DNA of 38,379 bases from a bacterium (lineage in GTDB: Bacteria; Bacillota_I; Bacilli_A; RF39; UBA660): contig CAVIUL010000001.1 in the NCBI GenBank assembly GCA_963645885.1, positions 22,265 to 60,643 of the forward strand, given 5' to 3'. Both the position numbers and the translations under genes were made by a program. Below the pieces are notes generated by a model. It had not been told where the DNA came from and did not search any database. It saw nothing but the letters and a program-made list of their open reading frames with translations. Below are positions 1-38,257 of the stretch, piece by piece. How positions within the stretch are numbered: the stretch's first letter is position 1; each line of letters begins with the position of its first letter.

Positions 1-3000
1 AATTAGAGTTTAAATCTTGAAAATGCAAAAGGTGTTGTTTGTTTAGATTATGAAGTAACTGGTAATGAATCTAAATAGCAAATATTTGGAATTGGTATTA
101 AAACAAAAAAACAAGTTATTGATTATCTTTATAATAAATTGCATATTAAAGGATTTTTCTTTGTAAGACAAAAGAGAATTCCAACAATTCTTTGTCAAGC
201 TTATACTATTGGTATAGATCCTCAAAGTAGAACTCCTATTTTACCAATAAGTACTAATTAGTTTGTTGCTGAAAGAATACTTAATGATGATAGACGACTT
301 CTTCATGATTTTACAAGTAGACTTTATAAAGATTTTAAATATAATCTAGTAAGAAAAGAAGGAGCTATATGTCCTGAATATGATATAGATACTCCTTATT
401 ATAATTCTATATTTACTGGAACTGAATTTCCTGTATATGAAGCTGATTTTTAGTCACCTAATAATTATTTATCTAATATGGGAGATAGACATTATTTTTC
501 AATAGGAACATCAAAACGTGAAAATGATGCTCCTTATGTTACTAAAATCATAGGAGTTGAAGATAATGTCAAATTAGTAAATATAGGTAATAAATTGTTT
601 GCAGCTAGAGCGGGTGAAGCAGAAGAAGCATTTAGATTTGAATACCTAAGTGAAAAAACAGAAAAAACAGAAGCAAATAATATAATAAGAGGTTCTTTTG
701 GACCATATTTAGGTATTACTGGTTATCCTTACTGTGGAAAAATTATAGATATAAAAATACCAGGATTTAATCATTTATCACAATCTGAAGTTTTTAAAAT
801 CAGATATAATGATAAATCTCCATTTTATGCTATATCAGAAAGAATTGCTATTAAAGATATTAGTAATTATTTTAGTGGTTTTCTAAATGAATTAGATAAT
901 GAAGACAAAGATGTATATTTAGAAAATTCTTTATATAGAGGAGATTGTTATATTTGTCAGTTTACACATAGATTAAATCGTAATTTCCAAGATCCTTCAT
1001 CTCCTGCAAATGATAAGATTGTTGACCCTAAATGTTGGTCTGATAATTTTGAATATGCTGATGGAGTTCTTAAAAAAGATAAATTTGATAGTATTAACTT
1101 AGGTGATGTTAATGCTATACAAATGGGAATGTGGGTTACATTTACAGTAAGATCTACTAACAATTTATGTATTCGGGCTATAGATGAATCTAATACAGAT
1201 GAATAGGGAATGTTTGGTAATTACAGAACATTTTATCCTTATGGACCTATGTCAGCAGAAGGTGCATACAAAATACCTGAAGCTTTATGTGTTAATAAAG
1301 GATTTAGTAAATCAGTATCTGAAAGAGTTAATTTTGAGGTACCTGATGTTCCTGCAATTAAAAATGATTTTACAAACAGAATAGCTTATTCAGATATTCA
1401 TGTTAATGATGCTTTTAAAAATGGATATAGAGTATTTAAAGGAACTCATTATAGAGATTATCCAAAAACATACGGTTCAATTACAAAATTAATAGAATTA
1501 CAAGGTAACTTAGTTTGTGTATTTGAACATGGTGTTGCTTTAATACCTGTTAATGAAAGAGCTGTTGCAGGAGAAGGAAGTGGAGGTAATATTTATATTA
1601 ATACATCTAATGTACTTCCTGAAAATCCAAAAATCATATCTGATACTTTTGGTAGCCAATGGAGAGATTCAGTTATAAAAACTCCTAGAGGAATATATGG
1701 AGTTGATACTATTGGTAAAAAGATATGGAGAACTAATGGATAGGATTTTGAATGTATTTCAGATTTTAAAATCCAAGAGTTCTTAAATTTAAATATTTCA
1801 CTTACAGAAAGAGAATTAGACCCTATTATAGGAGTTCGTAACGTAAAAACTCATTATAATAAGTTTAAACATGATGTAATGTTTACATTCTATGATAATC
1901 TTCATGGATTTGAAGAAAAAGTATGGAATGTTTGTTTCAACGAGTTAATGCAAAAATGGATTACTTTTTACAGTTGGGTTCCTAGTTACTCTGAAAATAT
2001 ATATAATTAGTATTTCAGTTTTGATAGAAATACATCAAAATGGATTACAAAGTTAGGAATAAGTAAAACAGATTCTGATTTTGCAGATGGAGTTACTTTA
2101 AGTAATAATATTATTCCTAATGATGCTAAAGCTGGAGATGTAGTTGGGTATTTATCATTATCTAATAGAACTATACCTTCAGGAGATGGAGTAAGCTATG
2201 ATATAAGTTACTCATTAGAAAGAGATAACTTTAGAAATGATAAATATTTTAGAATAGATAAAGTTTCCAAAGGAAATTCTATTTATGATAAAAATGAAGA
2301 TGGAACTACAAAATGGGCATTGTATTTAAAAGTAGATGCTACAGAATTATGTTCTGAACTTTATGTAAGAGGTAAAAAAACTATTGAATCTGGAAAAGTT
2401 GATTATGAAAAATTAATTGAAGAAATTAATGATAATACTAAACCAACTTGGATAGAACACTGTGTTAAAAATTCAGAATATGTTGTTTGTAAAGATGAAA
2501 GAGGAAGAAGAATAAATTTAGAAAAGAAATACAATTATAGTACATTAGTTAAACTTCTTAATATTAAAGCCACAATTTTAACTACAATTGATAGGACAGA
2601 TGTTCCTTTAGCAGAAGCTTATACTACAGGTATTACAAACCAATAGTATGTAGAATCTGGATATTATGAATCAGTAATAGCTGTATCTCCTAAATATAAT
2701 CTTTAGTTCTTAACTACTGATTTCTGGAAACATGGACAAGCAGGTATTATTGATTGTGCAGATACTATTAATCCTACTTATTGGTATGGTAGACAACATC
2801 CTTTTGAATTTGAATTTGTTGTTGCTGATAACCCACAATTACATAAAATTTTTGATAATTTAGAAATCATAAGTAATAACGCAGAACCTGAATCATTCCA
2901 TTATGAAATAGTTGGTGATTGCTATAGTTTTGCTAAAGATAAAAAAAATATGTATATTCGTTAGGAAGCAACTAAAGAATTATATCAATATAATGGATGT

Positions 3001-3675
3001 GATATTCTTTATGATACTAATTATATTGATTAGAATAAAGAAGTACATAGACCTATAGAAGGTAAATTAGATTCAGATGGAAAACAAGTATACGATAAAT
3101 CTACTATATTCCCTCTCTATTATTCAAGAGAAGATACTTTTAATGAAATTGAAGATTCTTATAAAGAAATGACAGCAGCTAACAAAGATTATGAATCTTT
3201 AGCTGGAGCTGAAATTGTTAAATATAATAATCTACAAGAATATCGTATTTGGAATCATGCTAAAGCTGCTGATATTACAAAAGTGGGAAGAATGTAGGGT
3301 AATATGCAATATAAAGAGGATAAATGGGATGTTCAAATTAATCCAATTAATATTGTAGAACGTAACGAAAAAGAATGGGGAACAGAAGATAGTACAGGAG
3401 GAACAGATTTAAATCCTAATAAAATACCTATTGTTTTATAGACTAATAGTATTCCTTCTGAGGTTTGTGATAAAATTCAAAGAGAAGGTACTGATATTCC
3501 TAAAAATTCTGAGGATAGAGCTATATATTCATGGGAGGTTGCAGGATTTAACGATTCTTCTAATAGTTCTGTCAAAGTAAAAGATAAATGGGTAAAGATT
3601 AGGATAAGATACTCTGGTGAAAAATTAGCAATTATCACTGCAATACGAACATTTTATAGTGGAAGTTATTCATAA
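1..3675 (+). CDS. Large virion/tail-associated structural protein, 5' partial (>=1,224 aa), TAG-recoded
   Basis: Frame 1 is open from base 1 to TAA at 3673-3675, apart from 13 in-frame TAGs. ORF-track fragments 478-1206, 1210-1743 and 2320-2646 all lie in this frame. The position directly upstream of cargo-like genes suggests a tail or muzzle-type protein, but I recognised no diagnostic motif. Confidence 0.8.
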
Positions 3676-6152
3676 TGTGGTATTTAAAAAAACAAAAACC
3701 TTTAAAATGCCAAATGTTTGGCACTAATGCTAGTAGTTTCTCTCTCAATAAAAATTTCTAGATGCCTAGTTTAACTTCTTCGCCACTTGCTACGTTACTA
3801 GGACAAACTCCTGAAACTAAACCAGATTTTTTTAATTTTAATGCAAATATACAAAATTCTCAAAATTAGACTAATTCTACAATAATTAATCCTGTTAAAT
3901 CTTTTACTGATACGGGTAGTAAAATAGTAAATGATTCTGCTTTAACATTAGGTTCTACATTAAGTCAATCTTCGGATACACTTACTAAAATATAGGGTCA
4001 ATAGATAAAAAATGATGCTATAACAGACTCTACAGGAGAGAGATTTAAATCAACAGGAGGTACTGATATTAAAGATATTGGTACTAAAAACAAATTTAGT
4101 GTTTCTGATGGTCTTAATTCTGGTTTTTCTGCATTAGGAAAAATAGGAGAAAAAGTAGGAGGTACTGCAGGACAAATAATGTCAGGTGTTAGTAATGTTG
4201 GTTCTAGTGTTATTAATTTAACAAAGACAGCAAAAGCTGCTGGAGGATTTAAAAATTTGTCTGGACTTGCTAAAGGAAATGCTGTTGCAGGTATTGCAGG
4301 AGCTGCTGCTGATATGATCGGCAGTTTTATGCCTCAAAAAACTGAATATGATGGACCTAAAGGCGATATTACATAGACAATGGATAGTGTTTATGATGGT
4401 ATAGCTGATGCTGCAATGTCTATGCCTGGACCAGGTATGATGATCGGTGGTATTATGAAAGCAGGATCTCTTTTAGGAAAAGGAATGAATGCTTTAGGAG
4501 GCGGTACCGATGGAATGTGTGTTTGTGCTGGAACAAAAGTCTTTAAAGCAAATGGAGAGATAATTAATGTAGAAGACTTAAAGAAAGAAGATGGCATTCT
4601 TGGTTGGGATGGTAAATAGGTGGTTCCACAATTAATACACGACTTTATAGAACCTAGACAAAAGAAATGTGTAGAAATTGTATTAAAGAATGGATATTCT
4701 ATTAAATGTAGTATTGACCACCCTATTTTAATAGATAATTCAAAAACTTGGGAATTTAAAAGAGCTGATAAATTAAAAATAGGAGACCTTGTAGGACTTG
4801 CTAATAATATAGATTATTGGGGAAATATTAATGTTCCCGAAGCTTATAATATAGGCAAAGAAGGTATTTTTAAAAATATCAAAAACTTTGATAAAGTTTC
4901 AATTTGTAATCTTTTAGCAGGAATATTTGATGTAAATGGTGATATATCTGTAAATAAGGGAAATTATTCTATAACTTTATATTCTTCTCTTTTAGAAGAA
5001 ATTGCAATACAATTTCATAAATTAGGAATATTTTCTATTATTAAAACAGATAAACATTATCTAAAAATACAAGATATTCCTTCTATTATTAAATTCTATG
5101 AGTTAATTCCTTTAAACGTATCTGATAAAAAAGAATAGCTTAAGAAAATATACAATACATTAAAAGACAAGGAAACCTTTAACCAATCTGAAGCTACTCA
5201 ATGTGAAATAGTATCTATAACACCTATTGGTATACAAACTGTGTATAATCTACAAGCTGATTATAATCACACTTATTTAGCTAATTGTATTATTACACAC
5301 AATACTTCTACAGACGCAATTTTAGGTAGTTCTTTCCTTAGCTTAACACCTATGGGACTAATAAATGGTTTTGGTGGTAAGAAAGCTGATACTATTACTA
5401 AAAACACTGATGCTTTTGAAACTGTAGGTGGTTCCTATTCTGGAGCTAATGCAAAAGTTGATGATGCACTTACTAAGAGTGGTAAAAAATATGGTTTATT
5501 TAGTAGTGGTGCAAGACAAGAAGCTAATCGTGAAATCGCAGAAGCAAAAAGGCAACAAAAAGTTGTATCTGAAATTGCTGATTAGAGTAGAGTAAATACA
5601 ACTTTACAACAATCTATGTCTGCAATTAATGCTAATAGACGAAAATTAGCATTAGAAGGTGGTTACGATTAGGCATCTATACGAGCTGGTAAACAAGGTA
5701 TGAGCATTGAACATACACCTACATAGATTGAATTAATCTCTCCTGTTTCTAAATTTAAAGAAGGAGGATCAGTTAATGTATTACCTGTAGGAGCTTTGCA
5801 TGCTCGTAAACATCATATGGATGTTGAAGGTATTACTGAGAAAGGTATTCCTGTTATAGATAATCGTGGTGAACAATAGGCAGAAATTGAGCATTCTGAA
5901 ATAATATTTAGACTAGAAGTAACTCAAAAATTAGAAGAATTAGAAAAGAAATATAGTGAATCTAATGATGATAAATATGCTTTAGAAGCAGGAGAACTTT
6001 TAGTAGAAGAAATATTGCATAATACAGATGATAAAACTGGTCTTATTAGTACTCTTAAACAAGGTGGAGTTATTAATTCTAAAACTACTATAGTTCAATC
6101 AGATATAGATAAAATGGTTAAACAAGCACTTATTAATATATTAACATAGTAA
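3675..6152 (+). CDS. Gly/Ala-rich protein (825 aa precursor, ~563 aa after splicing) carrying an intein; possible internal/ejection (cargo) protein
   Basis: The ATG at 3675 overlaps the upstream TAA (TAATG). Frame 3 is open to TAA at 6150-6152, with 12 in-frame TAGs. Track ORFs 4179, 4380, 4620 and 5241 share this frame. The N-terminal half has hydrophobic Gly/Ala-rich stretches (AVAGIAGAAADMIGS, GPGMMIGGIMKAGSLLG). The function of the extein is unknown. Confidence 0.8.
4518..5303 (+). mobile_element. Class-1 intein (262 aa) with a reduced LAGLIDADG-type homing endonuclease insert
   Basis: Block A is CVCAGTKVFKANGEIINVEDL, starting at Cys codon 4518. Block B is SIKCSIDHPILI (S-x-x-H). There is one clear LAGLIDADG motif, LLAGIFDVNGDIS. 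Blocks F/G are VYNLQADYNHTYLANCIITHN, ending at Asn codon 5301-5303 and followed by the +1 nucleophile Thr (5304-5306). The intein contains two in-frame TAGs (4617, 5136). Confidence 0.85.
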
Positions 6153-7036
6153 TGAAACAAAGTCAAGCTTTAATGTATAATATACCTATTTTTAATATAG
6201 GAGGTATACTTGCTAAAATAGCAAAATCAGCTAAAAACATACAAGGACAAGCTAATTTAGTAGGAAAAACAAAAAATCCAGAATTATTTAATCTGTTAAG
6301 CAAGTTAGCAAAAAGTTAGAAAGGTGGAACAAAACTTACAGAAAAAGAATCTAAAAAGTTAGTAACATTAGTTCAAAACTATAGAAGAAAGAATGTGCAT
6401 TACCAAGCACGAAGAAAAAAGTTTAATGAAGCTTTATCTGAACGAGCAGCTGCAGAACGAGCAGCTGCAGAACGAGCAGCAACTGAAGCTGCAGCAACTG
6501 AAGCTGCAGCAACTGAAGCTGCAGCAACTGAAGCTACTGGAACTACTGCAGCAACTACAGCCGCAGAACGAGCAGCTACTGCAGCACGAGCAGCTACATC
6601 TGCAGCTCAAGGAAGACTTGCTAAAGCTTGGGGAGTTGTTAAAAGACACCCTTGGATTACAGGAGGTGCTCTTTTAGGATTAAGTAATGGTTCTGTTAGA
6701 CAGGGTATTGGAGCAGGATTAAGTTATTGGACAACTCCAGTTAGTCAACGGGATTAGATTGGAACGCAATCTCCAACTGGATCTCAAATGCAAATAAGAT
6801 TAAATGATGGTTCAATTGTACCAGTAACAATGGGAGATGATGGAATTTTAACATTTGGTTCTACAACGGAAACTGAAGGATCAGATCCTACCGCAGACGC
6901 TATTGCTCAAGCTATCGCTGAAGCTAATGGTGCAGCTAGTACTGGTGCAGCTAGTACTCAAGCTCCATCTCTTGGTTCTTTTGCAACCAATGAAGAATTG
7001 AATGATGTCTTTGAAGATGACGCATGGGATCAGTAA
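6152..7036 (+). CDS. Ala/Glu/Thr-repeat protein with a central hydrophobic segment (294 aa), function unknown
   Basis: The ATG at 6152 overlaps the upstream TAA (TAATG). Frame 2 is open to TAA at 7034-7036, with 2 in-frame TAGs (6318, 6755). Track ORFs 6395-6757 and 6788-7036 share this frame. It contains the repeat AAERAAAERAATEAAATEAAATEAAATEA and the TM-like segment HPWITGGALLGLSNG. Confidence 0.75.
6440..6541 (+). repeat. In-frame 15-bp tandem repeats (gaacgagcagctgca x2-3, then actgaagctgcagca x3-4)
   Basis: Direct reading shows units at 6440, 6455, 6470 (12 bp), 6482, 6497, 6512 and 6527. Degenerate related units continue to about 6600. The repeats encode AAER/AATE pentapeptides. Confidence 0.9.
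6929..6958 (+). repeat. Perfect 15-bp direct duplication ggtgcagctagtact x2 (GAAST GAAST)
   Basis: Read directly: copies at 6929-6943 and 6944-6958, in frame within the 6152-7036 CDS. Confidence 0.85.
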
Positions 7037-7614
7037 TTATAAATAATAAAGAATATAAAGTAAAAGAAGCTAAAACTGAAGAAGAAAAACGCAAAGGATT
7101 ACAAGGAGTAGAAGAGCTTCCTGAAAATGAAGGAATGCTCTTTTACTTTGATCCTGATGAGGAAATTACTATGTGGATGGATAAAACTAAAATACCTCTT
7201 GATATTATTTTTATAAATGAAGATTATGAGGTAACTAAAGTTCATCATGGTATTCCTAATGATAAAACCCAAATATCATCTCCTGAAACTGCTTATGTTT
7301 TAGAAGTAAATCAAAATTCAGGTATTAAAGTTGGAGATGAGGTTGATTTTGATGATAATGATAAACCTCCAATTATGAAAGTTTTGGCTCCAGATGGTAG
7401 TACTTAGATGGAATTATGGGGTGGAGAACGTATAGTTAGTAGACGTGAAACCAAAATCCTCATAAAAAAAGCAAAAGCTGCAGAATTAGTAAAAGATACT
7501 CCTAAATATAAAAATAAATGTATTTCATTAGGTAAATATATGTTTAAAGTATTACGAGGTTAGGATAATAGACCTAATGAATATGTAGAAAATAAAAATG
7601 CTAAAACCGAATAA
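7024..7614 (+). CDS. DUF192 (COG1430-like) domain protein with a basic C-terminal tail (196 aa)
   Basis: The ATG at 7024 overlaps the upstream gene by 13 nt. Frame 1 is open to TAATAA at 7612-7617, with 2 in-frame TAGs (7405, 7561). The sequence KRKGLQGVEELPENEGMLFYF...ITMWMDKTKIPLDIIFINEDYEV...AYVLEVNQNSGIKVGDEV matches the DUF192 pattern as I remember it (GLm..l....GmlF, fwM.nt..pLDiiF, yvLE...G...i..Gd.v). Confidence 0.8.
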
Positions 7615-7683: not shown

Positions 7684-8046
7684 ATGAATATTACTTATAA
7701 AAACGCAGTAAAAAACGTAAAGAAATTTCAACAAGGTGGCCCAATGGGTCCAGAAGGTGCTCCTGCAGAAGGTGCTCCAGAAGGAGGTGAAATGCCAGCA
7801 GAGGGCGCACCTGAAGGTGGTGCTCCAGAAGGTGCTCCAGAAGGCGGTGGTGAGGATCCAATTGCTCAGTTAGTGCAAATCTTCGCACAAGGACTTCAAA
7901 ATCAAGATTGTCAGATGCTTGCACAGGGTGCACAAATGTTTATGGAACTCGCTCAACAAATGCAGGGCGGTGGTGGTCAACCAGCACCAGAAGGTCAGCC
8001 TGTATTTAGAAAGGGTGGTAAACTTGCATACAGAATTAAATATTAA
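7684..8046 (+). CDS. Small acidic PEGA-repeat / Gln-Met-rich protein (120 aa), TAG-free, function unknown
   Basis: This is an intact ATG-to-TAA ORF in the standard code. It is visibly GC-richer than its flanks. All 15 Gln codons are CAA or CAG, and 5 are CAG, which is rare elsewhere in the window. A promoter lies upstream and a terminator downstream. Confidence 0.85.
   Translation: MNITYKNAVKNVKKFQQGGPMGPEGAPAEGAPEGGEMPAEGAPEGGAPEGAPEGGGEDPIAQLVQIFAQGLQNQDCQMLAQGAQMFMELAQQMQGGGGQPAPEGQPVFRKGGKLAYRIKY
7750..7851 (+). repeat. Imperfect in-frame repeats of ccagaaggtgctcc-type units encoding (P/A)EG(A/G) repeats
   Basis: Read directly: PEGAPAEGAPEGGEMPAEGAPEGGAPEGAPEGGG. Confidence 0.7.
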
Positions 8047-8061: not shown

Positions 8062-8101
8062 AAGAGGAAGTGGAGATACACAACTCCTCTTCCTCTTTTT
8101 T
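8062..8101 (+). terminator. Rho-independent terminator
   Basis: A 14-bp stem, AAGAGGAAGTGGAG (8062-8075) pairing with CTCCTCTTCCTCTT (8084-8097), has one mismatch. The loop is 8 nt (ATACACAA). The stem runs into a T-tract ending at 8101 and starts 16 nt after the TAA at 8044-8046. Confidence 0.75.
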
Positions 8102-8106
8102 CATAT

Positions 8107-11100
8107 ATGGCAGAAAGTACACAATAGGTAACACCTACTTTATATAGTTTCTACGGGAAACAATATGATTATAATGATTTAGCTAAAGCAGCTGATTCTG
8201 GTTTAAATGATTATCTTATAACTCTTGAAAGAGGTGTAAAAGATTCTGATAAATTTAAAGCTGCTTATGCTGATATGATGTCAGGAATCAAAGATGGAAC
8301 CATTACATTTGGAGATGGACATTTTACTGATTCAAAAGGAAGATATACTAATGCAGATAAAGAAGCTAAAGACTACTATGGTTTGATAGCCAACTATATT
8401 TATGATAATATGGGTAAGTCTAATGTCTATGAGGCACCAATTTCTCCTGAAGAAGCACGAAAAATAAAATGGGATGATAATAGTGTTAAAACTGCATTAA
8501 TGAGAGAAATCTATAACAGTGATACTGCTGGTAATTTACAAGATTTCTTAGAATTAGATGATGCTAAGAATGGAGTAAGAGGAATTACTAATCGTTCTAC
8601 AAGATTAGCTAATGCTTTTCAATCTATTGCTGATAACTGGGATAATACATTCTCTGGTTATTCAGATAATGATAAAAATAGATATAGACAATTATTAGGA
8701 GAAGCTGCAACCGCATTAAGAGATGGTACTATTAATGCAGGAGATTATTTAGCTTTAAGTAGAGCTATTGGAGGTGTAGATTTTAGAAGTATGTTAGCTA
8801 CAGGGTCTCCAACATCTACTGCTACTCCTGATATAAGTTCTTCTACTACTCCTGATATAAGTTCTGCAACTTCTACTCCATCTTCTACATATAAATTAAA
8901 AAGAGCATCTTTAAATGCTGATGGATATAGTGCTACAGATATTAATTATATGACAGGATTAATGTCTAAAGTAAAGAGTACCAAAGGACTTATTAACATT
9001 CTTAGAAATAGTTTTTATAATAGAAATTATAAATTTGCAAGAGACCCTAGAGTTTATGCAATTTTTAAAAGTAATAAAATTAGTAGTAAAGCAGGAATTA
9101 CTGCAACACTTAATGCATTAAATGCAAGAGGTGTTTTGAAACAAGCAGACCCTTCTAATCCTAATTTAATGTATATACCTGGTCTTAGAACAAAACGAGG
9201 TACAGCTTGGGTTTGGGATAAGTCATCAAATCAAATAGCAGAATTGCAAGTAGATAATATTCCTTATTTAAAAGCTAGATTATCTCAAGTAACATCTCAT
9301 AAAAAAGGAGGAGTACTTTATGCTGAAAAAGGAGCAGAAACTCCTTATTGGTATAGTAGTATAAACGATTATGATAAAAGTAAGTATGGATATTCTTGGG
9401 GTAGTACTGCTTATGGAATGGATAAAGATGGCAATTTTATAGATGCATTTGGAAATGCTAATAAAGGATATAATCAAAATCGTTACACTACAGATTCTGG
9501 ATATAGAGATTTTTCAGATGCTGGAAAAAATATAGCATTAGGTATTGAAAATGCACAAAACTACAAAGACCAAACTTCTAAAATTTTATCAGATTATGAT
9601 GCTTATATTAATGCTTCTGATAAAAGTGGATTTAATGAATCTAATAATTTATTTCTTCGTTATACTAAATGGTATGACTCTTAGCAAACAAATTCTGCTA
9701 ATAGATTTTGGAATGGAGATTAGTTAAATTCAAATTGGACTTCTCAAGGTAAAAGCTATTACGGAAATACAACAGGACCTGTTACTGATATTAAAACTCG
9801 AATCAATTAGTTAAGAAATGATTAGATGGTAGGTATCGCACATAATAATTTTAAAGCAGAAGGAACTCGATATTTTTATAAAGATAAAGATGGAAATCAA
9901 CATTGGGTAGATCCTGAAGTAGCAAAAAATTATTAGAAAAAAGAAGGTGATCCTACAAAAACACAAGATGGTTTTACAACTTGGAGTGATTATGAATTAA
10001 TTGGCCCTGCTCAATAGAAAACAGCACAAGAAACTCCTCAAGGAGATGGTACTCAAATTGATAGAACTGACTAGACACAAAAACCTAGCAAATGGAATGA
10101 ACTTTACGGTAAGATTAAAGGTGGTCTTAATAAGCTAGCTCCTTTGGCTTCTGAAGCTGCACGAATGGGATTATCTATACATACTAATAATAAACTTGCA
10201 GACGTTCTTAGATAGCATACTAAATTAGGTTTATATAACCCTTGGGAATATCATACTCCTATTACTGGAGACTTTGGATAGATGTAGTTTAAATTTAATC
10301 AAGCAGCTCAAACTAGAAGTCTAGGTGACAGAATGGCTAGTAGTACTTCTGATGCATCAACTGGTTTTGCTGCATAGTTAGACGCTAATAGACAAGCTAG
10401 TAGTTAGGAAACTGAAGGATATTTAGCTGATAATAAAGAAAGACAAAGAACTACAGAAGTTGCTCAGCAACATGCATAGCAAGCTATTTAGGTAAAAAAT
10501 GATATTGCAAATAAAAATGTTGACAAACAAGTTGATTATGATGAAAAATTAGGAAATATTGAAGCTCAAAGACTCAATGCTAATTGGCAATCCAAAGATA
10601 ACTTTATTGCTAACAATATATCTGCACCATTAAAAGAACAAGCAGCATACGATCTTTCACAAAAGCGTGCTGAAGAGGCTAACAAAAAAGATCAAAAACT
10701 TCAATTTGATTTAGCTCCACTTACAAGACAACAACGATTTCAATCAAATCAATTAGCAAGATATTATACACAAAAAGGTTAGGATTTGTCTCAAGATTAT
10801 AATTCTAAACTTTTAGCTTGGTAGAAAGTCAATGGAGAGGATGCTGATTATACTCAATAGGATTTTTATAAAAATTATATAAATAAGTCAAGAGAATTAG
10901 AAAATCAAATGTATAAAGACCAGTATGATATGTCTGTAGACTAGAGTAATCAAATTAGAACTTTATATGATAATCTTTATAACAATCAATACGCAAGTAA
11001 TTTTACATCAAATCCTTTTGGAAGTAAAACTACCTCAACTAAAGTTCCTCATTATCAAGAAATATTAAGAGGTGCAGGAATGTTGAGAAAAGGAGGTAAA

Positions 11101-28400: not shown

Positions 28401-31400
28401 AGTAAAAGTTACTAGGGATAATTATAATCAAGTGGGAGCTTATGTATTATAGTTATTCAAAGATATGTCAAAAGTTAGAATTAATGGAGAACTTCATAAA
28501 ATTGATAAAGAATCTATTAAAACATAGCCTTATGAAGTAATAATGCCTAAAACTTTTGCTACAGCTTTCGGATTAAATGAATTTGATTCATTAGAAGAAA
28601 TTGCAAAAGATCCAGAATTCTTCTTAAAACAATATATTAAAAATCAAGCTTCTAAAGTAGCTTAGAATTAGTATTCTGTTGAATTTAAAAGGTCTACAGG
28701 ATAGCATATATATGTACTAAACAAATCTCAAGTACCTGGTTCAGGATTACATAAATTAGAAGGAGTTTTAACTGAAGTTGAAGATGGAGTTACTACAAGA
28801 TTAGATTCAATGAATCAACCTATGTATGAACTTTCTCCTGATTCTGAAATTTACATAGATGATTAGGGAAATGAAGTAATTGTAAGTGATGATATTGAAT
28901 TTTATACCAATTCATTATTTTATGATTCTATAAAAATTTCAGAGAATTTAAGAAATAATTCATAGGTATTAAGATCCCTTCCTGAAATATTTAGAAATTC
29001 TTCAAACAAAACAGCTAATGCGTTTGGGAAATTTTTAAGGTCTTATGGAGATTCTAATATAATTATGGGAAGTGATGATTGGAATGATATAGACCAAAAT
29101 CACCCTATAGTAAAATTAATGCATGAAAAACATTCTTCTTTCTTAAGAGCATTAGATATTGTTGCTGCTCGTATTCCTGCACAATCTATGCAATCATACA
29201 TGCCTATGAAAGTTGTAGCTTTTGATAACCCAAATATTAATACTGCATATGTATCTACATATCAAATTTTACTTCAAGGTTCCGACTATGATATAGATGC
29301 AGTTTCTTTAGCTACTTTTGACATAGACTCTAATGGAATGTATTAGCTTTGGTCTCCATATGCTAATATTTCAGATATTGAAAAATTACATGCTTCAGAA
29401 CTACTACCAATTCCAACAGGTTTAGAAACAGAAATTAAGAGTACAAACGATATAGCAGAAGCAATTAAGATTTTTGATGAATATCAAGATTTAATATCTA
29501 TTACTCCTAGACAAACTTACAATAAAGAGTCTAAACTTCCAGAAATTGATCCAAATAAAGTAAATGTAGATTTAAATTTGGATACAGCTGAACAAATAAA
29601 GATGTTAGGTGATTTATTAAATGAATAGTTATTGTCAATAGATCCTGTGTATGCTCCGCAATTTATTAAAAAATTTAATAAATTAGGAGGATTTTAGGTA
29701 TCTAATATAGAACAAATTAATGACATTTTATCTCAATTAAAATCAATCATAGATAAACATAATTTTTATTTTGATAAAGTTTCTGAGAAGAAACTCAATC
29801 ATATCATTAATAATAGAACTATACTTTCTATGTATAATAGTATTAATAATCCTGTTAATTTAACTTAGGCTCATATGTCAGTGGATAATACAACAGGCCC
29901 ATTAAAAGATGTTGCTGAAAATGGATCTCCTGAAATTATATATGAATCAAAACATAGAACTCCTGGAAATTTTGTTAATAAATGTGAAAGTATTAATGAA
30001 AACCAAGTTGGTAAAACAGGTATTGCTATTTGTGCTACTGGATTAAAAGGATTTTTTGCATTAACTCAATATAATAACTATTTATTAAACAAAGGAACTT
30101 CAGAAGAATAGAACAAACTTCTATTTAATGTATCAATAGGTAATAATATATATAGAACTTTAGCAAATATAAGAGCTTTAGATCCCAATACCATTACTAA
30201 TAACACAGTGTTAAAATGTTTAGCTCAAACAGATAATGATGAAGATGCTGCACTGGTTTTATCTGCATTACTATCATTAGCTACTGATAATGCCAAAGAA
30301 TTAGCTCTTTCTAAATTAAATGCAGGAACTAAAACATTAGGTATGTATGTTTATGGAATAGCTATAGGTATGGACTTTAAGGATATTGCCAGACTCCTTA
30401 TGTCAAAAACAGGTAAAACTATAGTAGATATTTCTGAAAGTGATGTATTTGATCAAACAGACGGATATATTACTATAAAATCCGCTTTTGGATATTTCGA
30501 ATAGTTACCTAATAAATATTTAAATAAATATAATATTAGAAAAAATCCAAATGGAACTTCAATAAAATCCCCATTAGAATTTTTTGAAGATTAGATAAGA
30601 AAATTACCTGATGATTTTTATTTTGAAGATGATGGTCGAGAAATGCCATTAAATGTAGTTCTAAGTAATTTTGCTAAAAGAAATTGGGATTTATCGGATA
30701 AATTATAGATATTAGAATCATTAAGAAATAGATACAATACATCTGCTTATGGATCAGAAGTTTATGAGCAATTAATAGACTTTTTAGAAGATTATGTTAT
30801 TGGATCTTTTGAAGTTAATGAAGACTATGAAACATATCAATAGTTAAAAACATTAGCTGAAGGAGCAGATGAAATGAAGACATTAGGTCAAATATTAGGT
30901 TTAAATGGAGGAATTGCTACTGACTATGAAGGATTAACTAAACAAATAGATAGAATTGAAGAAGTTATTTATAAACAGTCTCATGATTTAGAGGATATTA
31001 TAGATTTATCTAAATTTGTTTTTGATTCTGAATATCGTCAGGAATGTATTGAAAAATACGAGACATTTAAACATACATTTAATATTCTTGACTGTTTAGC
31101 TAAAGTTCCACATTTTTTTGAATATGTAAAATAGCTTGCAGTTGCTCAAGAAGAGATAAAACAATCCTATAAATATAGAAGTGTTAAAAGTTTAGCTCGC
31201 AATGTAAGTGATGTAATTGGGTGGAGTAACAAAGGAAAAATTTCTAAAGGATTACAAAATTATATAGGTGACAAAATCAGAAATGACTGGATGCTTGATA
31301 GTGAAATAATAATGGATATGCCTTCTGGAATTAAAGCATTTGACAGAAATGGTGATAGTGATACTTTAACTGAAAGTAAACCTATAAGATTAGGAACTGA

Positions 31401-32409
31401 TTGGGGTAATGCTACATTTAGAATATTTATGGAAACTCAAGTTATTCCTGATTTAAAAAAAGGTATTATTCGTCCAGGAACTAGTGTAGGATCCATTAAA
31501 ACTAATAAGTTTATAAAGGATTTAACCCCTGACTTATTTACTAAAACAGTATCTTCTAATCCTACTATATTATATACTTTACCTATTAATATGTTACCTA
31601 GAACAGATGTTGAATAGTCTTTACTAGATTCTTATATTGGTGAGTTTAATGAATTAGCAGGATATACATACGATTATAATGTTATTAAACGAGATGTTGA
31701 TGGAAATGAACAAATTATACAACAATCAATTCCTATTAAAGATTTGTTTATTTACTATTCAATGATAGCACATAATTGGAAATTAGGAGAAAATTCATTA
31801 GTTCCTATTTTAGAAAATTTTTAGGATACTGGTTTAATTGATGCATTTCATAAATATGAGGCATCTTTAGATAATAGTGGGGAAACTCTTACTGAATACA
31901 ACATAAATGAAATTCTTCCATACGTTGTTCCAAGAATGAGTCCTTATTCTGCTTACACAAAATATATAAAAGCGAAAAATCCTTCTAGTAAAAAGATTGA
32001 AATAATGAAAAGAACAGTATCTGATACACAAACTGATAATAATGAGATGTATGAAGGAAATGAAATGTATGAGGATATTATATATGGAATGATTGATTCT
32101 AATAAAATAGGCAATTATGAATTTATACAAAACAATCTTGATACTAATTATTTCACATCTGGTATAATAGGAAGTACAGATAAAATTATAAAATCTGAAA
32201 TTATAGATAATAAGGGTGAATCCTTACAATTAGAAATACAGTATGATTCTGAAAATGATAGTATTAAACGAGTTGCTGTTGATAATGTTATGTATGATAT
32301 TAAAACATTATCTCATGCTCTATTTACTAAAATAGACGGAAGAAAAGTTCCAAATCTATCATTGATGAAAAGTATAATTAAAAATGAATTATATCCATGT
32401 CATGTATAA
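22477..32409 (+). CDS. Giant protein (3,310 aa): putative virion-packaged two-barrel RNA polymerase (crAss-like vRNAP)
   Basis: The ATG at 22477 overlaps the upstream TGA (ATGA). Frame 1 is open for 9.9 kb to TAA at 32407-32409. I checked all gaps and found 52 in-frame TAGs. It contains a beta-prime-like DPBB segment, AARIPAQSMQSYMPMKVVAF...LLQGSDYDIDAVSL. Confidence 0.85.
29284..29298 (+). other. DxDxD (DYDID) candidate catalytic metal-binding motif of the RNAP
   Basis: The codons gac tat gat ata gat give D-Y-D-I-D. The upstream R-x-P...hydrophobic strand resembles bacterial beta-prime (RAPTLHRLGIQAF...NADFDGDQMAVH) and the DxDxD motif reported for giant crAss-like phage proteins. Confidence 0.65.
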
Positions 32410-33455
32410 ATAAAAAATCTCCTGAGTACTAGGCTTTGAAAAATAAGTCTGGTATTCAGGAATTTATACTAGAAGCTATATGTAGAGATTTTGTTGATGA
32501 ACATCAGAGATTTCCGTATCTTGATGAACTTTCAGATGTTAATTCTGAACTTCATTTGAAAAAACGATTATCTATTAATTCTTATGGAACCTCTAATATT
32601 AGTACTATTTTAGAAAAAAGTAATGCTTCTGATTTAGAAGAAGCAGCAATCAATTTAAATAATGAATACAGAGATTTAGAAATAGATATTACTCCTATTC
32701 AAGAAACTGCTTTTATAGATATAGAACATAGACCTACAGATTCTAACTTCGAAACAAATCCAGTAACAGTGGATGAACATCCAAATAATTATGATATTTT
32801 TAATAATGCATTAATAAAATTAGCATCATTATATGGAATAAAATTTAATGCAATAACTAATGCTGAGTTAAATTCTGAAACTTGGAATAATGTTCCAGGA
32901 GTAATGGATGCTAATGCATTTATATTTAATGGAGAAATTTATATAAATTTAGATAAAAGTTCAGTAGATGCTCCTTTACATGAATTAATGCATTTATTAA
33001 TTGGGTCTATGAGATTTTCTGATCCTAATATTTATTAGCAATTAGTGGCATCTGTTGAAAATATTCCAGATTTTCAAAAACTAGCCCAAAATTATCAAGG
33101 AAGAACAGCAAATGATATAAAAGAAGAAATTTTTGTTACTGAAGTTGCAAAACATTTAACAGGTCAATCTTCTTTTATAGATAATTTAGATGCTAATATT
33201 CGTTATGAAATACTATATAATACAAGAAGATTATTAGACTCTATATTAATGGGACAAGATAGTGTAAGAACAATCTCTCCTAAAAGATTGTTTACAATGT
33301 CATTAAAAAATCTTACTAAAGAAGTTAATTCTGTAATAATGTCTAATAATTTTAAAGGGTATGTAAATTCTGAAGATTCTGAGTTACATAGAAGACTTAA
33401 TAATATTAAATCAGATTTATTAAAAAATAATCAACTAGAAGAATATTGTGAATAA
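32397..33455 (+). CDS. HExxH protein, putative zincin-like metallopeptidase (352 aa from ATG 32397; 339 aa if the TTG at 32436 is used)
   Basis: Frame 3 is open to TAA at 33453-33455. The ATG at 32397 overlaps the upstream gene by 13 nt and needs read-through of the TAG at 32430. A second in-frame TAG lies at 33036. The motif VDAPLHELMHLLIGS has HELMH at 32979-32993. Confidence 0.7.
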
Positions 33456-36400
33456 TGGCATGTATATATAAATATAAAGGACATACATTTAATTCTGAAT
33501 TAGAACTTGATGATTTTATTCTTGAAAAACTTCCGTTTGAGCCAACAATGGGCGATTTAGTCTTTAGTATGACCGAATAGCAACTAAATATATCTTCTCA
33601 ATTAAGTAAAATAGCTAAGGATTCTCATGAACTTGTAAGGAAATATCAAGAAATGTTAAACAACAACAAAGTTCTTTACAACGAGGATGGAGAAATGGCT
33701 TTAGAAGATCCTCCTTATATTGGAGTAAACAAGTTTCTTTCTGGATTAAAAAATGAATCAGGAGAATTATTATTTCCTGAATTTAGAGAAGAAGAATATT
33801 GGACACGACGATATGCTAATTGGAAAGTTGGACAATTCACAGATGCTGAAATAGAAGAATTTGAATTAGACAAAAATAACTTACCAAAAATTACAGAAGC
33901 TAGTGAACACAAGAGGCTAAGAGATTAGATGACTCATAAATGGGAAGTTCAAGCAAAAACTGGTTCTGCAATACATAATATTTTTCAAATTTGTTTTTAG
34001 AAAGAAAAGGGTGTTTATAATTTTTCTTTAGATGATGCACAATTAGAAAAAATAATTGAATCTAAATTAGAAGAAAAAAATAAACCTTATATAAAAGGAG
34101 ATATAGTTCAATAGGCAATTAAATATGCTAGAGAACTAAATGCAAAACTTACAGAAAAATTTGGAGAAGGATGTGCATATTATCCTGAATTTATGGTATC
34201 CCAAGATACAAATATTATTGAGAAAGGACATCCTACTAAATTAATGGGCATCATTGACCTTTTAATTGTAGATCCAACTGGTAAAGTACACATTTTAGAT
34301 TATAAGACTTCTATTCATGATTATCATGACTTTGTTCAAGCAAAAAAGAATTCTTATAGTTATCAATTAGGTACGTATCAAAGAATGTTACAAAAATATG
34401 GAGTACAAACATATCAAGGATAGTTAATGGTTGCTCCTATTCAAATTACTGATTTTAAAAAGGACGGAGATTCTTATACTTATTCAGGTATTACTACTTC
34501 TGAAACAATTACTGAAGTAGGTGTGCAATTAAATGCAGATAAAATGTGGGAGAACATTGATGAATTTATGCCTGCTCCTTTTAAGTTAAATATAACAACT
34601 TCTGAAGCTATTAAAACTACATCAGAAATGATGGCAAAATGGTTTCCTAATTATCGTTCTAATTATAAAATTAATCGCGAAGATTTGATTAAACGATTAA
34701 AGCAATAGAACAAATTAGAGAAAAATGAAAATGGACAGTATGTTTATACTAAATATGACTCTAAAGAAACTATTGTTGCTACAGAAGAAGGCGAATTTGT
34801 TGATAAAATTCTTAAATATGAACAAGGTTTACCAGCAAAACGATTGGAAGTTACAGCAAGAGTTAAAAATGCATTAACAGAAGCTATAAAGAACGGTATA
34901 GATAATGTGGATTTTCCTACTCCTACTACTATATCTTCTGATGGTTCTACAACCTGGTTAAAAGATACATTATCTCCATATTGTAATGGTCTTTGGGAAA
35001 TAGAAGATAATCATCTTCTGGAATCATTTGGAGTAATTATGTTAAAAACAAAAGATGGTATATCTCCAAAACAAATTGAGTTTGTTCGTGTTAGTACAAA
35101 TACATTACGAAGAGATCATAGAGCACATTTAGATAAAGAATCTAGAAAAAATGTATTTATGGAAAGAAAAGGATTACTTTCTAATTATGAAAATGATGTA
35201 ATTTAGAAGTCTAAATCTAATTCTTTAATGGTAGAAGGTGTTCAAGGTAATGTTGAACTTATAGAAACATTATTATTAATCAACCAAATGAAAGGTTTGG
35301 AAGGCTGTACAATTGGAAATGTTCAAGTAGTAAATCCAATTCAAGCAAACGGTATTTCTTTAACTAATGAAGAATTAATTTATTGTTGGAATGAATTAAA
35401 CAAACATGATAAAGTAAATTTTGACAATATTAAAAATGGTGATATAAAGTTTGCTAATAAATATGAAATAGCCAGAAATAAATTTGCAAATATCATGAGA
35501 TTAGGTGCAAAATGTGATTGGAAAGATAACTATCGTTTATTTGGAAAACTCAGAACATCTTTACCCGTACTAGATGAAAATATAAACGGAACAACTGAAG
35601 AAAAGATTTCAGCGTTAAAAGAACTTTTAAATAAAATTTCACAAAGTGATAATGCAAGAACTTTAGACAAAGTTTATTCAGAACAATCTGATTTAAAATC
35701 AGAAGCTGTAGATTTATATAACTCTATATTATAGGCTATAGCTCAATTAAAAGGAGTTAATTTCAGACAACAATTAAATGATCATGATAAATTTGTTGAA
35801 AGTCTTGCTATGTGGAAAAATGGATTATCAGGTACTTATATTGATAACCCTGGAAATATGGATAGTGAAACTCTTAATTTAGTAACAGGTTTAGTTACAG
35901 AGGCTTATCAAAATACTAGAGATGATATTCAAAGAGAAAAACCAAAAATTTATAAGTTGATAGAAAAACTTAAAAAGGAGAAAGGATTTAATGTAATTTC
36001 TGAAAATACTATAGGCAACTAGACATCTCTTTATTCTAATATGTTTTAGCCATATACAAAAGGAGGAGATTTTCTTTTTAAAAATCCGAATGATTTACAA
36101 GGTGCTGAAAAAGAATTTTTAACATATGCACTAGACAAAATAAATCGTAATCGTTATCCTGGAAAAACAGACGAAGAATATGAATATATGAAAAATTCAG
36201 GAAGTATTGATTATTATAGAGTACCTTTAGCTAAAGGTGGAGAGGATTCAATTGCTTCTACTAGAGGATTGTTAAGTGCGTTAAGAACTAAATTAAGTTA
36301 TTTAAATCCTAAAACAGCTTTCCAAAATGCTAGAGAAAAAGTAGAAGGAATATTTAATGCTGATGAAGATATTTCAAAGCAACAGCAAACAGAATTAATA

Positions 36401-38257
36401 TATAAAATGAATACAATGTTTGATGGAGGAGAAAATACTGAAAAACGTATTAAAAAGTTATAGGATAAAGGAGAAGACTTTTTTGAACATAACTTAGAAA
36501 CATTACTTTATAAACACATGTTTTCATACTCTGTAAAGAATAATATGGATGGAGTATTTCCTATGATTAAGGCTGCTATGGCTCATATTTGTACTTAGGG
36601 AGCTATGCAAAATCATAAGTTTAGTGAAGATATTCATTATTTAGATCGTTATATTAGAAATAAAATATATAACCAATCTATTATCGATCCTAAACTTCAA
36701 GATGTAGCAAAAAAATTAGGATTGTTAAAACAAGCCGCATCAAAATTAACTTTAGCATTTGCTCCAGTTCAAGCATTTTATCAACCTTTACAAGGACTTT
36801 GGACGGATATAAGTCTAATGATTCGTAAACCTGACGGTAAAGATTCATTTACATTTTCTCATTTCACAAAAGCTTTGAAAATGGTATACTCTGATTTGGG
36901 ACACTTTTCTGATTCTCCTACTATTTGTTCATCACTTAACGAAATTTATGGAATAAATGATATGGATATGAATACATATACTGAACGTATTAGTAATGCT
37001 AAAAAAGGTATATGGAATTTTGAAAATTTTATGTTTAAATTTGCATCTCGTCCTGACTTCTATAATCGTATGAGTATTTTCCTTTCACAAATGATGGGAG
37101 ATGGTTGTTTAGAAGCGCATACTTTAAAAGATGGAGAATTAATATACGATTGGAAAAAGGATAAAAGATTTGAAGCATTTGCAAATGGTAGAACTAGTGA
37201 CCCTAAGTATCATCAACAAAAAACATTATACTATACTATAGCATAGCAATTTGTAAATGAACATGCTAAAGTTAAATTATCTGACGGAAAAGTTACAGAT
37301 TTTAAATTAGATATGTCAAAGCCTATGCCTTTACCGAGAGCTTACACTAACAAACAAGCTGAAAGTATGAAATCTTTAGGAGACGATATATATGGTTACT
37401 ATTCGCATGAAAAGAAATCACTTATAATGTCTACTACATTAGGTAGTCTTTGGTTACAATTTAAAACATACTGGTCTGGTAAAAAGAATCAATACTTATA
37501 GTCTGGAGGAGTTCGATTAAGAGGTAATTGGGAACATTATGAAGAAAATGGTGAAAAATATTATTATCAAACTGATAAAAACGGTAACACTCTTTTCAAC
37601 GAACCTCCTAAAACTGAAAAAGAATTAAAAGAAATGGGACAAAAAGCAATATCCCCAGTAATGCAATGGAAAGGACAGTGGCAAGAAGGTATTATTTTAA
37701 CACTATCTGATTTAGCTAAAACTGCTTGGAATAATGGAGTTTTGTCTACCAATCCTAATAAATCATGGAATGCGTTAAAAACAGCTTGGAATGAAAAGTG
37801 GAATGCTCAAGATGAAAATCTTAGAACTGCTTATCAAAATAATATAAAATAGTTATTATATGATTTTAGTATGTTCTTAATAGGAGGATGTATCTTAGGA
37901 GCTTTATTAGGAGATTGGCTTGATGAATTAAAAGACGACAATAAGAAAAATAAAGACTTTGTTACAGGATTAGGAATAGCTGCAGCAAATGTAGCTGTAT
38001 TATCTGTAAAAAATTCATTTTTAGACTTTAATGCTATTGATTCTATAGGTGGTGCAGTTCAAACATGGACTCCTTTTTCATTTGATTGGACAACAGGAAC
38101 ATTAAAGAACGCATGGAAAGTAGCAACAGGTGATGAAGATTTCTGGGATGGAGTAATTAAAACATCTGGTGGATTAAGATAGATTAAACCTGCTTTAGAT
38201 GCAATAAAACCAGATATGTTTAGAACTAAGTCTGAAGGAGGAACATTTGGACAATAA
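33455..38257 (+). CDS. Large protein (1,600 aa): N-terminal PD-(D/E)xK (RecB/Cas4-like) nuclease domain, long unknown region, C-terminal hydrophobic helices
   Basis: The ATG at 33455 overlaps the upstream TAA (TAATG). Frame 2 is open to TAA at 38255-38257. I checked all gaps and found 16 in-frame TAGs. The C-terminal hydrophobic segments are FLIGGCILGALLGDWL and GLGIAAANVAVLSV (about 37870-38020). Confidence 0.85.
33929..34400 (+). other. PD-(D/E)xK nuclease motif set
   Basis: The motifs are GSAIHNIFQ (motif-I-like), GIIDLLIVDPTGKVHILDYKTS (D at 34256, D-Y-K at 34298-34306) and QLGTY (34364-34378). This is the classic RecB-family order G.iD...(h)hDYKT...QL..Y. Confidence 0.7.

What the first reader, a model, noticed from the sequence alone, without database searches (positions are those of the whole stretch)
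1..38257. TAG is a sense codon throughout this operon (amber reassignment, probably TAG->Gln)
Seen directly: each long gene is one frame broken only by TAG. My hand counts of in-frame TAGs are 13, 12, 2, 2, 0, 19, 8, 52, 52, 2 and 16 in the eleven genes, about 178 in total. In the same ~12,600 codons I found no in-frame TAA or TGA. Every change of frame coincides with a TAA or TGA stop next to an ATG (TAATG at 3673, 6150 and 33453; ATGA at 11142 and 22477).

Conserved motif sets lie on different TAG-separated fragments yet appear in the correct order. This holds for intein blocks A/B/F/G, helicase motifs I-VI, and the nuclease motifs. That is impossible if TAG terminates translation.

TAG often sits beside CAA codons (caa tag, tag caa) and is concentrated in Gln-rich segments. 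This fits the TAG->Gln reassignment known from crAss-like and other gut phages, but the window cannot prove which amino acid is inserted.
Basis: partly seen in the sequence, partly recalled or inferred. Interest (0 to 1): 0.85.

Follow-up and report, generated by a model that had tools for sequence, protein, structure and literature searches.

The report
Amber codon read as glutamine

Summary
Eleven co-directional + strand genes (12,710 codons) hold 178 in-frame TAG and no in-frame TAA or TGA. All eleven end in TAA or TGA. ORFs of at least 100 aa cover 34% of the window under table 11 and 99% when TAG is sense.

Pfam places the window in a crAss-like phage: muzzle protein, intein, DUF192, PD-(D/E)XK nuclease, and a giant DxDxD RNA-polymerase-like protein. 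Relatives sit on 150-190 kb contigs rich in introns and inteins, which fits the "Zeta" group of Yutin et al. 2021.

Codon-level comparison with standard-code and recoded relatives makes Gln the most likely meaning of TAG in 13 of 14 tests. In the same species' contig, the early genes downstream are intact under the standard code.

No tRNA occurs in the window or in bases 815-70,532 of that species' 70.5 kb contig. A relative with 90% amidase identity, and most other relatives, carry a single tRNA, always with anticodon CUA, next to the start of the late block.

TAG-to-Gln recoding of late genes in crAss-like phages is published and confirmed by proteomics. This is a new member of a known kind, of low interest.

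The parts
1..3675 (+). g1: C-terminal 1224 aa of a 1717-aa crAss muzzle protein; 13 in-frame TAG; stop TAA
   Evidence: Pfam crAss_MUZ 2.1e-22 and crAss_MUZ_C 6.6e-07. Full-length 1717-aa homologue that is 100% identical over the window part (P0001).
3675..6152 (+). g2: 825-aa protein with an inserted intein; 12 in-frame TAG, the last directly before the TAA stop
   Evidence: Pfam Intein_splicing 1.2e-14, residues 297-543, with TAG at codons 315 and 488. LAGLIDADG_3 in the L181 homologue.
6152..7036 (+). g3: 294-aa Ala-rich protein; 2 TAG
   Evidence: no family match
7024..7614 (+). g4: 196-aa DUF192 protein; 2 TAG
   Evidence: Pfam DUF192 3e-24
7684..8046 (+). g5: 120-aa Gln/Gly/Pro-rich protein, the only gene without TAG (15 CAA/CAG)
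   Evidence: The exact protein is also on NCBI contig CAVAQB010000093.1.
8062..8097 (+). Hairpin (14-nt arms, 8-nt loop) followed by a T run, after g5
8107..11145 (+). g6: 1012-aa protein of unknown function; 19 TAG; stop TGA
11142..13046 (+). g7: 634-aa protein of unknown function; 8 TAG
13049..22480 (+). g8: 3143-aa giant protein with a P-loop NTPase domain; 52 TAG; stop TGA
   Evidence: Pfam AAA_30 at its threshold (27 bits, residues 1465-1621, TAG at codon 1483). No PDB sequence match.
22477..32409 (+). g9: 3310-aa giant protein with the motif YQILLQGSDYDID (aa 2268, nt 29278); probable virion RNA polymerase; 52 TAG
   Evidence: The motif is conserved in 13 relatives. No Pfam or PDB sequence match. 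The identity is inferred from the DxDxD motif and from synteny as described in PMC7886860.
32397..33455 (+). g10: 352-aa protein with an HELMH motif; 2 TAG
   Evidence: motif seen by eye
33455..38257 (+). g11: 1600-aa protein with an N-terminal PD-(D/E)XK nuclease domain; 16 TAG
   Evidence: Pfam PDDEXK_1 2.5e-11, residues 165-326, with TAG at codons 182, 220 and 323
36020..36022 (+). Example TAG (g11 codon 856) in a conserved column
   Evidence: Gln in 8 of 12 standard-code homologues; Gln or TAG in 6 of 7 recoded relatives
38263..38314 (.). Long hairpin (24-nt arms) between the end of the late block and the converging early genes
   Evidence: converging minus-strand genes seen in L244

Best explanation
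The window is the distal half of the late (virion and virion-packaged enzyme) gene block of a large crAss-like phage.

In these genes TAG is a sense codon read as glutamine. It supplies 30% of all Gln codons. Termination uses only TAA and TGA.

The phage's early genes are written so that they can be read with the host's standard code. Among the early products is an amber-suppressor tRNA (anticodon CUA) encoded close to the head of the late block. Once it accumulates, the late genes, which are unreadable before, can be translated in full.

**Shown here**
- TAG is in frame and conserved.
- TAG positions behave like Gln positions.
- Early genes of the same species are standard-code compatible.
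- Close relatives carry one tRNA, always CUA.

**Inferred**
- This genome itself carries that tRNA.
- The tRNA is charged with Gln.
- The tRNA outcompetes release factor 1.
- The arrangement serves to time late expression.
For: **TAG is sense**
- 178 in-frame TAG and 0 in-frame TAA/TGA in 12,710 codons.
- ORF coverage is 34% under table 11 and 99% with TAG as sense.
- Pfam domains span TAG codons.
- In a 98.95%-identical strain, 81 of 83 TAG are kept. The two changes are to CAG and TGG, never to TAA or TGA.

**TAG means Gln**
- Gln is the maximum-likelihood residue against standard-code homologues L012 and L014, by 10.5 and 18.5 log units.
- Gln is the best residue in 13 of 14 directional comparisons with recoded relatives.
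- In L181 (81-83% nt identity), window TAG pairs with CAA 14 times and relative TAG pairs with window CAA 14 times.
- The two invariant Gln next to the GSDxDxD motif of g9 are TAG in five recoded relatives.
- g11 codon 856 aligns with Gln in 8 of 12 standard-code homologues.

**Dual coding**
- In the same species' contig (L244, 99.6% identical), the 10 kb after g11 holds 16 minus-strand ORFs. All are intact under table 11 and all end in TAA or TGA.
- The same pattern holds in relatives.

**Suppressor tRNA**
- L387, on a contig whose amidase is 90% identical to this species', has one tRNA, with anticodon CUA. It lies at the border between standard-code genes and TAG-broken genes.
- L344 has one tRNA(CUA), Rfam tRNA 43.3 bits. 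It has U1-A72, G2-C71, G3-C70 and G10, as in E. coli tRNA-Gln.
- 17 of 27 metagenome loci have exactly one tRNA, and it is always CUA.
- Among portal-anchored loci, 8 of 36 TAG-recoded and 0 of 44 standard-code loci carry a tRNA(CUA).

**Literature**
- PMC7886860: TAG->Gln, mostly in late genes of crAss-like phages, with code switches at short phylogenetic distance.
- PMC9523058: peptides prove TAG->Gln in two crAss-like phages, one with a 191 kb genome.
- bioRxiv 10.1101/2021.08.26.457843: the model that recoding times late-gene expression.
Against: - No tRNA was found in the window or in bases 815-70,532 of the same species' contig. The suppressor is therefore shown only in relatives.
- The suppressor of the closest relative (L387) is atypical. 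It is 91 nt, has a long variable arm and a T-loop reading UUUGA. It falls below the Rfam tRNA threshold, and its best Rfam match is tRNA-Sec at 31.9 bits. Its amino-acid identity cannot be read from its sequence.
- Most window TAG sit at poorly conserved positions, so the Gln signal fades in homologues below about 30% identity.
- There is no peptide evidence for this phage.
- No release-factor or tRNA-synthetase gene was seen in the parts read.
Confidence: 0.87

Rival explanations
1. TAG is a sense codon but stands for another amino acid, for instance Ser, Leu or Tyr. These are the bacterial tRNA classes that have a long variable arm.
For: The CUA tRNA of the closest relative (L387) has a long variable arm. 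So do those of L307, L321, L357, L362 and L365. In a few distant comparisons Ser, Thr or Ala score as well as Gln.
Against: Gln beats the next residue by 10-70 log units in all close comparisons. The dominant partner of TAG is CAA, not TCN, TTR or TAY. Several long-arm suppressors (L307, L365) keep the D-arm and acceptor stem of tRNA-Gln. Proteomics found Gln in related phages (PMC9523058).
Confidence: 0.06
2. TAG stays a stop codon and is only occasionally read through by the host machinery (leaky termination), without a dedicated suppressor.
For: No tRNA in the 70 kb read for this species. Yutin et al. note recoded crAss-like genomes without a detectable suppressor (PMC7886860).
Against: g8 and g9 each need 52 read-through events. 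At 90% efficiency per site, only about 0.4% of chains would be complete (my arithmetic). TAG is used more than six times as often as CAG (178 against 28). Close relatives do carry a tRNA(CUA).
Confidence: 0.03
3. The host itself uses a code with TAG as sense, and the phage merely follows it.
For: None found. The contig was binned with an Anaeroplasmataceae MAG.
Against: Early genes of the same species and of relatives avoid in-frame TAG completely. That would be needless in such a host. Sister lineages with 0 in-frame TAG are interleaved with recoded ones. Bins holding relatives span unrelated phyla, and even an archaeon, so the binning says nothing about the host.
Confidence: 0.02
4. The TAG codons are real stops in decayed or misassembled genes.
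For: None beyond the table-11 reading.
Against: There is no TAA or TGA in 12,710 codons. The same structure appears in independent assemblies from NCBI, ENA, Logan and IMG/VR. TAG positions are conserved between strains.
Confidence: 0.01

Closest known systems
TAG-recoded crAss-like phages, especially the large-genome 'Zeta' group (Yutin et al. 2021, PMC7886860)
   Same: - Muzzle and ring proteins and a giant DxDxD transcription-block protein.
- Relatives on 150-190 kb contigs.
- An intein in g2, and group I introns with homing endonucleases splitting a structural gene upstream.
- TAG recoding in late genes only.
- Recoded and standard-code lineages interleaved.
- Suppressor tRNAs present in many members but not all.
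   Different: Nothing of kind. Group membership was not tested by phylogeny. This particular genome (NCBI contig CAVAQB010000093.1, filed in a bacterial MAG) is not described as a phage in any paper I read.
The two crAss-like phages with proteomic proof of code 15 (Peters et al. 2022, PMC9523058)
   Same: TAG in late structural genes, a standard-code early region, and predicted suppressor tRNAs. One of the two has a 191 kb genome, the size class of this window's relatives.
   Different: There are no peptide data here. The relationship to those two genomes could not be checked because their sequences are not in the collections at hand.
Code-change model of Borges et al. (bioRxiv 10.1101/2021.08.26.457843)
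   Same: The suppressor tRNA lies in standard-code territory next to recoded lysis and structural genes. A lysis amidase uses TAG for all four of its Gln codons (L255 2202-2813).
   Different: No release factor 2 or glutaminyl-tRNA synthetase gene was seen in the parts read.
E. coli supE (glnV) amber suppressor, a tRNA-Gln with anticodon CUA (established knowledge)
   Same: A tRNA-Gln body with a CUA anticodon. L344 shares U1-A72, G2-C71, G3-C70 and G10 with E. coli tRNA-Gln.
   Different: - It is phage-encoded.
- The discriminator base is A73, not G73.
- Several relatives have an added long variable arm.
- It is used for wholesale decoding, not for weak suppression.

Membership tests
Phage stop-codon recoding, TAG->Gln (genetic code 15) | In-frame TAG inside otherwise intact, conserved genes | tested here: met
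   178 TAG in 11 genes; Pfam envelopes span TAG
Phage stop-codon recoding, TAG->Gln (genetic code 15) | TAA and TGA remain the only terminators | tested here: met
   0 in-frame TAA/TGA; the 11 stops are 9 TAA and 2 TGA
Phage stop-codon recoding, TAG->Gln (genetic code 15) | TAG positions align with Gln in homologues that use the standard code | tested here: met
   Gln is the maximum-likelihood residue against L012 and L014. TAG<->CAA exchange dominates. Conserved-column examples.
Phage stop-codon recoding, TAG->Gln (genetic code 15) | Recoding confined to late genes; early genes readable with the standard code | tested here: met
   Same-species contig L244: 16 early ORFs intact under table 11. 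Relatives behave the same way.
Phage stop-codon recoding, TAG->Gln (genetic code 15) | Suppressor tRNA with anticodon CUA in the phage genome | tested here: inconclusive
   Absent from the window and from bases 815-70,532 of the same species' contig. Present in the relative with 90% amidase identity (L387) and in 24 other relatives. The rest of this genome could not be read.
Phage stop-codon recoding, TAG->Gln (genetic code 15) | Peptides with Gln at TAG positions | not testable with these tools
   Needs proteomics; done for other crAss-like phages (PMC9523058).
crAss-like phages (Crassvirales), large-genome Zeta-like group | crAss-specific virion proteins | tested here: met
   crAss_MUZ and crAss_MUZ_C in g1; CrAss_Ring_1 upstream in the same species' contig
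crAss-like phages (Crassvirales), large-genome Zeta-like group | Transcription block of giant proteins, one with the DxDxD motif | tested here: met
   g8 (3143 aa) and g9 (3310 aa); GSDYDID conserved in 13 relatives. There is no profile or PDB sequence match, so the polymerase identity is inferred.
crAss-like phages (Crassvirales), large-genome Zeta-like group | Genome of 145-192 kb with many inteins and group I introns | tested here: met
   Relatives' contigs are 154-190 kb. Intein in g2. Three Rfam Intron_gpI hits, one of them reaching Rfam's gathering score, with NUMOD1 endonuclease genes in L255. The genome size of this phage itself is unknown (70.5 kb partial contig).
crAss-like phages (Crassvirales), large-genome Zeta-like group | Placement in the Zeta clade in TerL, portal or MCP trees | not tested
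   No reference sequences of the named groups were at hand.

The most novel reading that the evidence does not exclude
The lineage closest to this window decodes TAG with an atypical suppressor. It is a 91-nt CUA tRNA with a long variable arm and a UUUGA T-loop, and the standard tRNA model does not accept it. Similar long-arm versions built on a tRNA-Gln-like body recur in relatives. If these are a distinct, functional class, they could show one of three things: a Gln acceptor can carry a class-II-type arm; the arm protects the tRNA from host nucleases or serves a phage factor; or some lineages insert a different amino acid.
Probability: 0.12. Interest if true: 0.5.

Novelty: new member of a known kind. 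Interest (0 to 1): 0.2.

Why it matters
The practical value is in annotation. Under the standard table this window breaks into more than 170 fragments. Its species' contig sits unrecognised in a bacterial MAG labelled Anaeroplasmataceae. Relatives are filed under Muribaculaceae, Rickettsiales and even Methanobacteriaceae.

Reading TAG as Gln restores eleven genes, including two of over 3100 aa.

Biologically it adds one more case to the published picture that crAss-like phages write their late genes in a code the uninfected host cannot read. It opens no new question, apart from the odd shape of some of the suppressor tRNAs.

Tried and rejected
**DNA and sequence searches with no result**
- Megablast of 25 kb against GenBank phages: no match.
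- PHROGs gave almost nothing.
- g9 and the g8 P-loop region have no PDB sequence match. The polymerase and helicase labels therefore rest on motifs and synteny.
- Rfam found no family in the window.
- Consensus promoter and terminator scans around g5 and after g11 found nothing above chance.

**tRNA hunt**
- ARAGORN found nothing around the homologues of five anchors: g11, ThyX, PolA, dUTPase and a structural gene upstream of the muzzle. Together with the portal loci, this was about 6.8 Mb of relatives' DNA.
- A positive control worked.
- The tRNA turned up only after walking to the head of the late block.
- The standard-code relative MT835470.1 has no tRNA at all.

**Other dead ends**
- Designing a DNA pattern for suppressor tRNAs was dropped, because the known examples were too different.
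- Host inference from MAG bins was rejected as mis-binning.
Full report
**1. The observation**

With TAA and TGA as the only stops, the + strand of the window resolves into eleven consecutive genes. There is nothing comparable on the other strand. After fixing the starts, the genes are:
- g1 1-3675 (open at the window edge)
- g2 3675-6152
- g3 6152-7036
- g4 7024-7614
- g5 7684-8046
- g6 8107-11145
- g7 11142-13046
- g8 13049-22480
- g9 22477-32409
- g10 32397-33455
- g11 33455-38257

Their in-frame TAG counts are 13, 12, 2, 2, 0, 19, 8, 52, 52, 2 and 16, total 178.

There is no in-frame TAA or TGA in 12,710 codons. The other two frames of the same stretch carry them at 4.7% and 14% of codons, so chance is excluded.

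ORFs of at least 100 aa cover 34% of the window under table 11. With TAG as sense they cover 99%. Making TGA or TAA sense does not rescue the genes.

All eleven genes end in TAA (9) or TGA (2).

**2. What the genes are**

Pfam results:
- g1: crAss_MUZ and crAss_MUZ_C
- g2: an intein
- g4: DUF192
- g8: AAA_30, exactly at its threshold
- g11: PDDEXK_1

The domain envelopes contain 2, 2, 1 and 3 TAG codons for crAss_MUZ, the intein, AAA_30 and PDDEXK_1.

g9 has no profile or PDB match. It does carry YQILLQGSDYDID, which is conserved in 13 relatives. This fits the giant DxDxD RNA-polymerase protein of the crAss transcription block described in PMC7886860.

The helicase claim for g8 rests on Walker motifs and a borderline P-loop hit only.

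**3. Where the window comes from**

The TAG-free protein g5 is found unchanged on NCBI contig CAVAQB010000093.1 (70.5 kb). That contig is 98.95-99.6% identical to the window. It is filed in a MAG labelled Anaeroplasmataceae.

Relatives are filed under unrelated bacteria and even an archaeon. The bins are therefore binning errors, not hosts.

The public protein collection already translates this contig with TAG as Gln: exact look-ups with Q at TAG positions succeed.

Upstream on the same contig lie:
- a crAss ring protein;
- a lysis amidase whose four Gln codons are all TAG;
- a structural gene split by homing-endonuclease genes and three Rfam group I intron hits, one of which reaches Rfam's gathering score.

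Relatives lie on contigs of 154-190 kb. Large genomes, an intein, introns and mixed coding within the group match the Zeta group of crAss-like phages (PMC7886860). I did not test this by phylogeny.

**4. Which amino acid**

I avoided database translations, which are circular here, and compared codons in DNA.

*Homologues with and without recoding.* Among 80 IMG/VR loci with a g11 homologue, some have 27-55 in-frame TAG and others have none.

*Standard-code homologues.* Against the two closest ones (L012 and L014, 35-45% identity), 55 window TAG positions in g9-g11 align with Gln 16-18% of the time. Background is 2.7%, and true CAA/CAG positions give 27-28%. A likelihood built from the same alignments puts Gln first by 10.5 and 18.5 log units. 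The signal fades in homologues below about 30% identity.

*Recoded relatives.* Gln is first in 13 of 14 directional tests, by 24-70 log units in the closest ones.

*Codon partners.* The commonest partner of TAG is CAA, which is two substitutions away, so mutational proximity does not explain it.

*A near-identical strain.* 81 of 83 TAG are conserved, and the two changes are to CAG and TGG.

*Clear single columns.*
- The two invariant Gln before GSDxDxD are TAG in five recoded relatives.
- g11 codon 856 (nt 36020) is Gln in 8 of 12 standard-code homologues.

*Usage and context.* TAG makes up 30% of putative Gln codons (178 TAG, 397 CAA, 28 CAG).

**5. How it works**

*Early genes.* In the same species' contig, the 10 kb after g11 holds 16 converging minus-strand ORFs. 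They include ThyX, a DNA-polymerase-like gene, a sigma factor and a ligase-like gene. All are intact under table 11 and all end in TAA or TGA. Relatives show the same pattern. The genome is therefore written in two dialects, as published for crAss-like phages.

*No tRNA in this species' contig.* No tRNA is present in the window or in bases 815-70,532 of that contig.

*Walking outwards in relatives.* This found nothing until the head of the late block was reached.
- Among 80 portal-anchored loci, a tRNA with anticodon CUA occurs in 8 of 36 TAG-recoded loci and 0 of 44 standard-code loci. The hypergeometric p is about 0.001 by my arithmetic, but six of the eight are near-identical.
- Anchoring on a nuclease gene at the start of the late block gave 17 of 27 metagenome loci with exactly one tRNA, always CUA.

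*L344 (OQWE01000001.1).* This is the contig of the g11 homologue that is 68% identical. Its tRNA passes Rfam (43.3 bits). It has the acceptor stem and G10 of E. coli tRNA-Gln.

*L387.* This lies on a 169 kb ENA contig whose amidase is 90% identical to this species'. A CUA tRNA lies on the early strand, about 4 kb from the divergent junction. It sits between genes that are intact under table 11 and TAG-broken genes that include a lysozyme-like one. This tRNA is atypical: 91 nt, a long variable arm, and below the Rfam tRNA threshold.

*Suppressor body types.* Most other suppressors share the D-arm of phage tRNA-Gln(UUG).

*Inference.* I infer that this phage carries the same gene in the unread part of its genome, and that it supplies Gln at UAG late in infection. 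With 52 TAG in one gene, decoding must be efficient. At 90% efficiency per site, only about 0.4% of chains would be full length.

**6. Comparison with what is known**

- TAG-to-Gln recoding of late genes in crAss-like phages, the imperfect match between recoding and detectable suppressors, and code switches between close relatives are described in PMC7886860.
- The timing model is in bioRxiv 10.1101/2021.08.26.457843.
- Peptide proof for two crAss-like phages, one of 191 kb, is in PMC9523058.

Nothing in the window departs from that picture.

**7. Verdict**

The case is a new member of a known kind, and interest is low.

The only mildly unusual item is the recurrent long variable arm of some suppressor tRNAs in this lineage.

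Noticed in passing
window 7684-8046 (g5) and 8062-8097: g5 is the only gene without TAG, although it is the most Gln-rich (15 CAA/CAG in 120 codons). At the block's 30% TAG share, zero TAG has a chance of about 0.005. It is flanked by non-coding spacers and followed by a hairpin with a T run. It may be expressed separately from the recoded genes, or before them.
   Followed up: partly
window 6147-6152: g2 ends with TAG directly followed by the TAA stop.
   Followed up: no
window about 6437-6610 (g3) and about 7740-7850 (g5): Low-complexity repeats: AAAER/AATEA runs in g3 and PEGA runs in g5.
   Followed up: no
window 32979-32993 (g10, HELMH); g9 also has LLHESMH: Two HExxH zincin-like motifs, one in g10 and one in the middle of g9. 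Seen by eye only.
   Followed up: no
window 26131-26133 (g9 codon 1219): This TAG aligns with Pro in 8 of 9 standard-code homologues, with TAG in three close relatives, and with Gln in a fourth. It looks like a lineage-specific Pro-to-Gln change now written as TAG.
   Followed up: no
L255 5511-11098 (same species' contig, upstream of the window): A structural gene is split into short exons by three NUMOD1/GIY-YIG-type endonuclease genes. Rfam group I intron matches lie at 5511-5752, 6292-6489 and 7942-8041.
   Followed up: partly
L255 2202-2813: The lysis amidase (Amidase_3) uses TAG for all four Gln codons and never CAA or CAG. Three of the TAG are conserved in the 90%-identical homologue of L258.
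   Followed up: partly
L387 5638-5728; also L307 103-192, L321 9-96, L357 7254-7343, L362 2266-2355, L365 7549-7638: These CUA tRNAs are 88-91 nt long with a long variable arm. The L387 copy has a UUUGA T-loop, fails the Rfam tRNA threshold, and best matches the tRNA-Sec model (31.9 bits). L307 and L365 keep a tRNA-Gln-like D-arm and acceptor stem.
   Followed up: partly
L175 3255-8158, L178 1787-6421, L387 1175-2005: The early region of relatives encodes what look, by eye, like a Thg1-type enzyme, an RNA ligase and a polynucleotide kinase (a tRNA-repair set). It also encodes a sigma-70 factor, confirmed by Pfam in L387.
   Followed up: no
L005 19521-21121, L006 21534-22907: A phosphoesterase gene matches in two pieces about 1 kb apart, which suggests another intron.
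   Followed up: no
L244-L253 (genome contigs): Contigs of this phage group are binned into MAGs named Anaeroplasmataceae, Muribaculaceae, Rickettsiales, Parabacteroides, Clostridium, Methanobacteriaceae and others. This is likely contamination of public MAGs.
   Followed up: partly
L062 10001-14401: One g11 homologue has two in-frame TGA and no TAG. This may be a TGA-recoded lineage or an interrupted gene.
   Followed up: no
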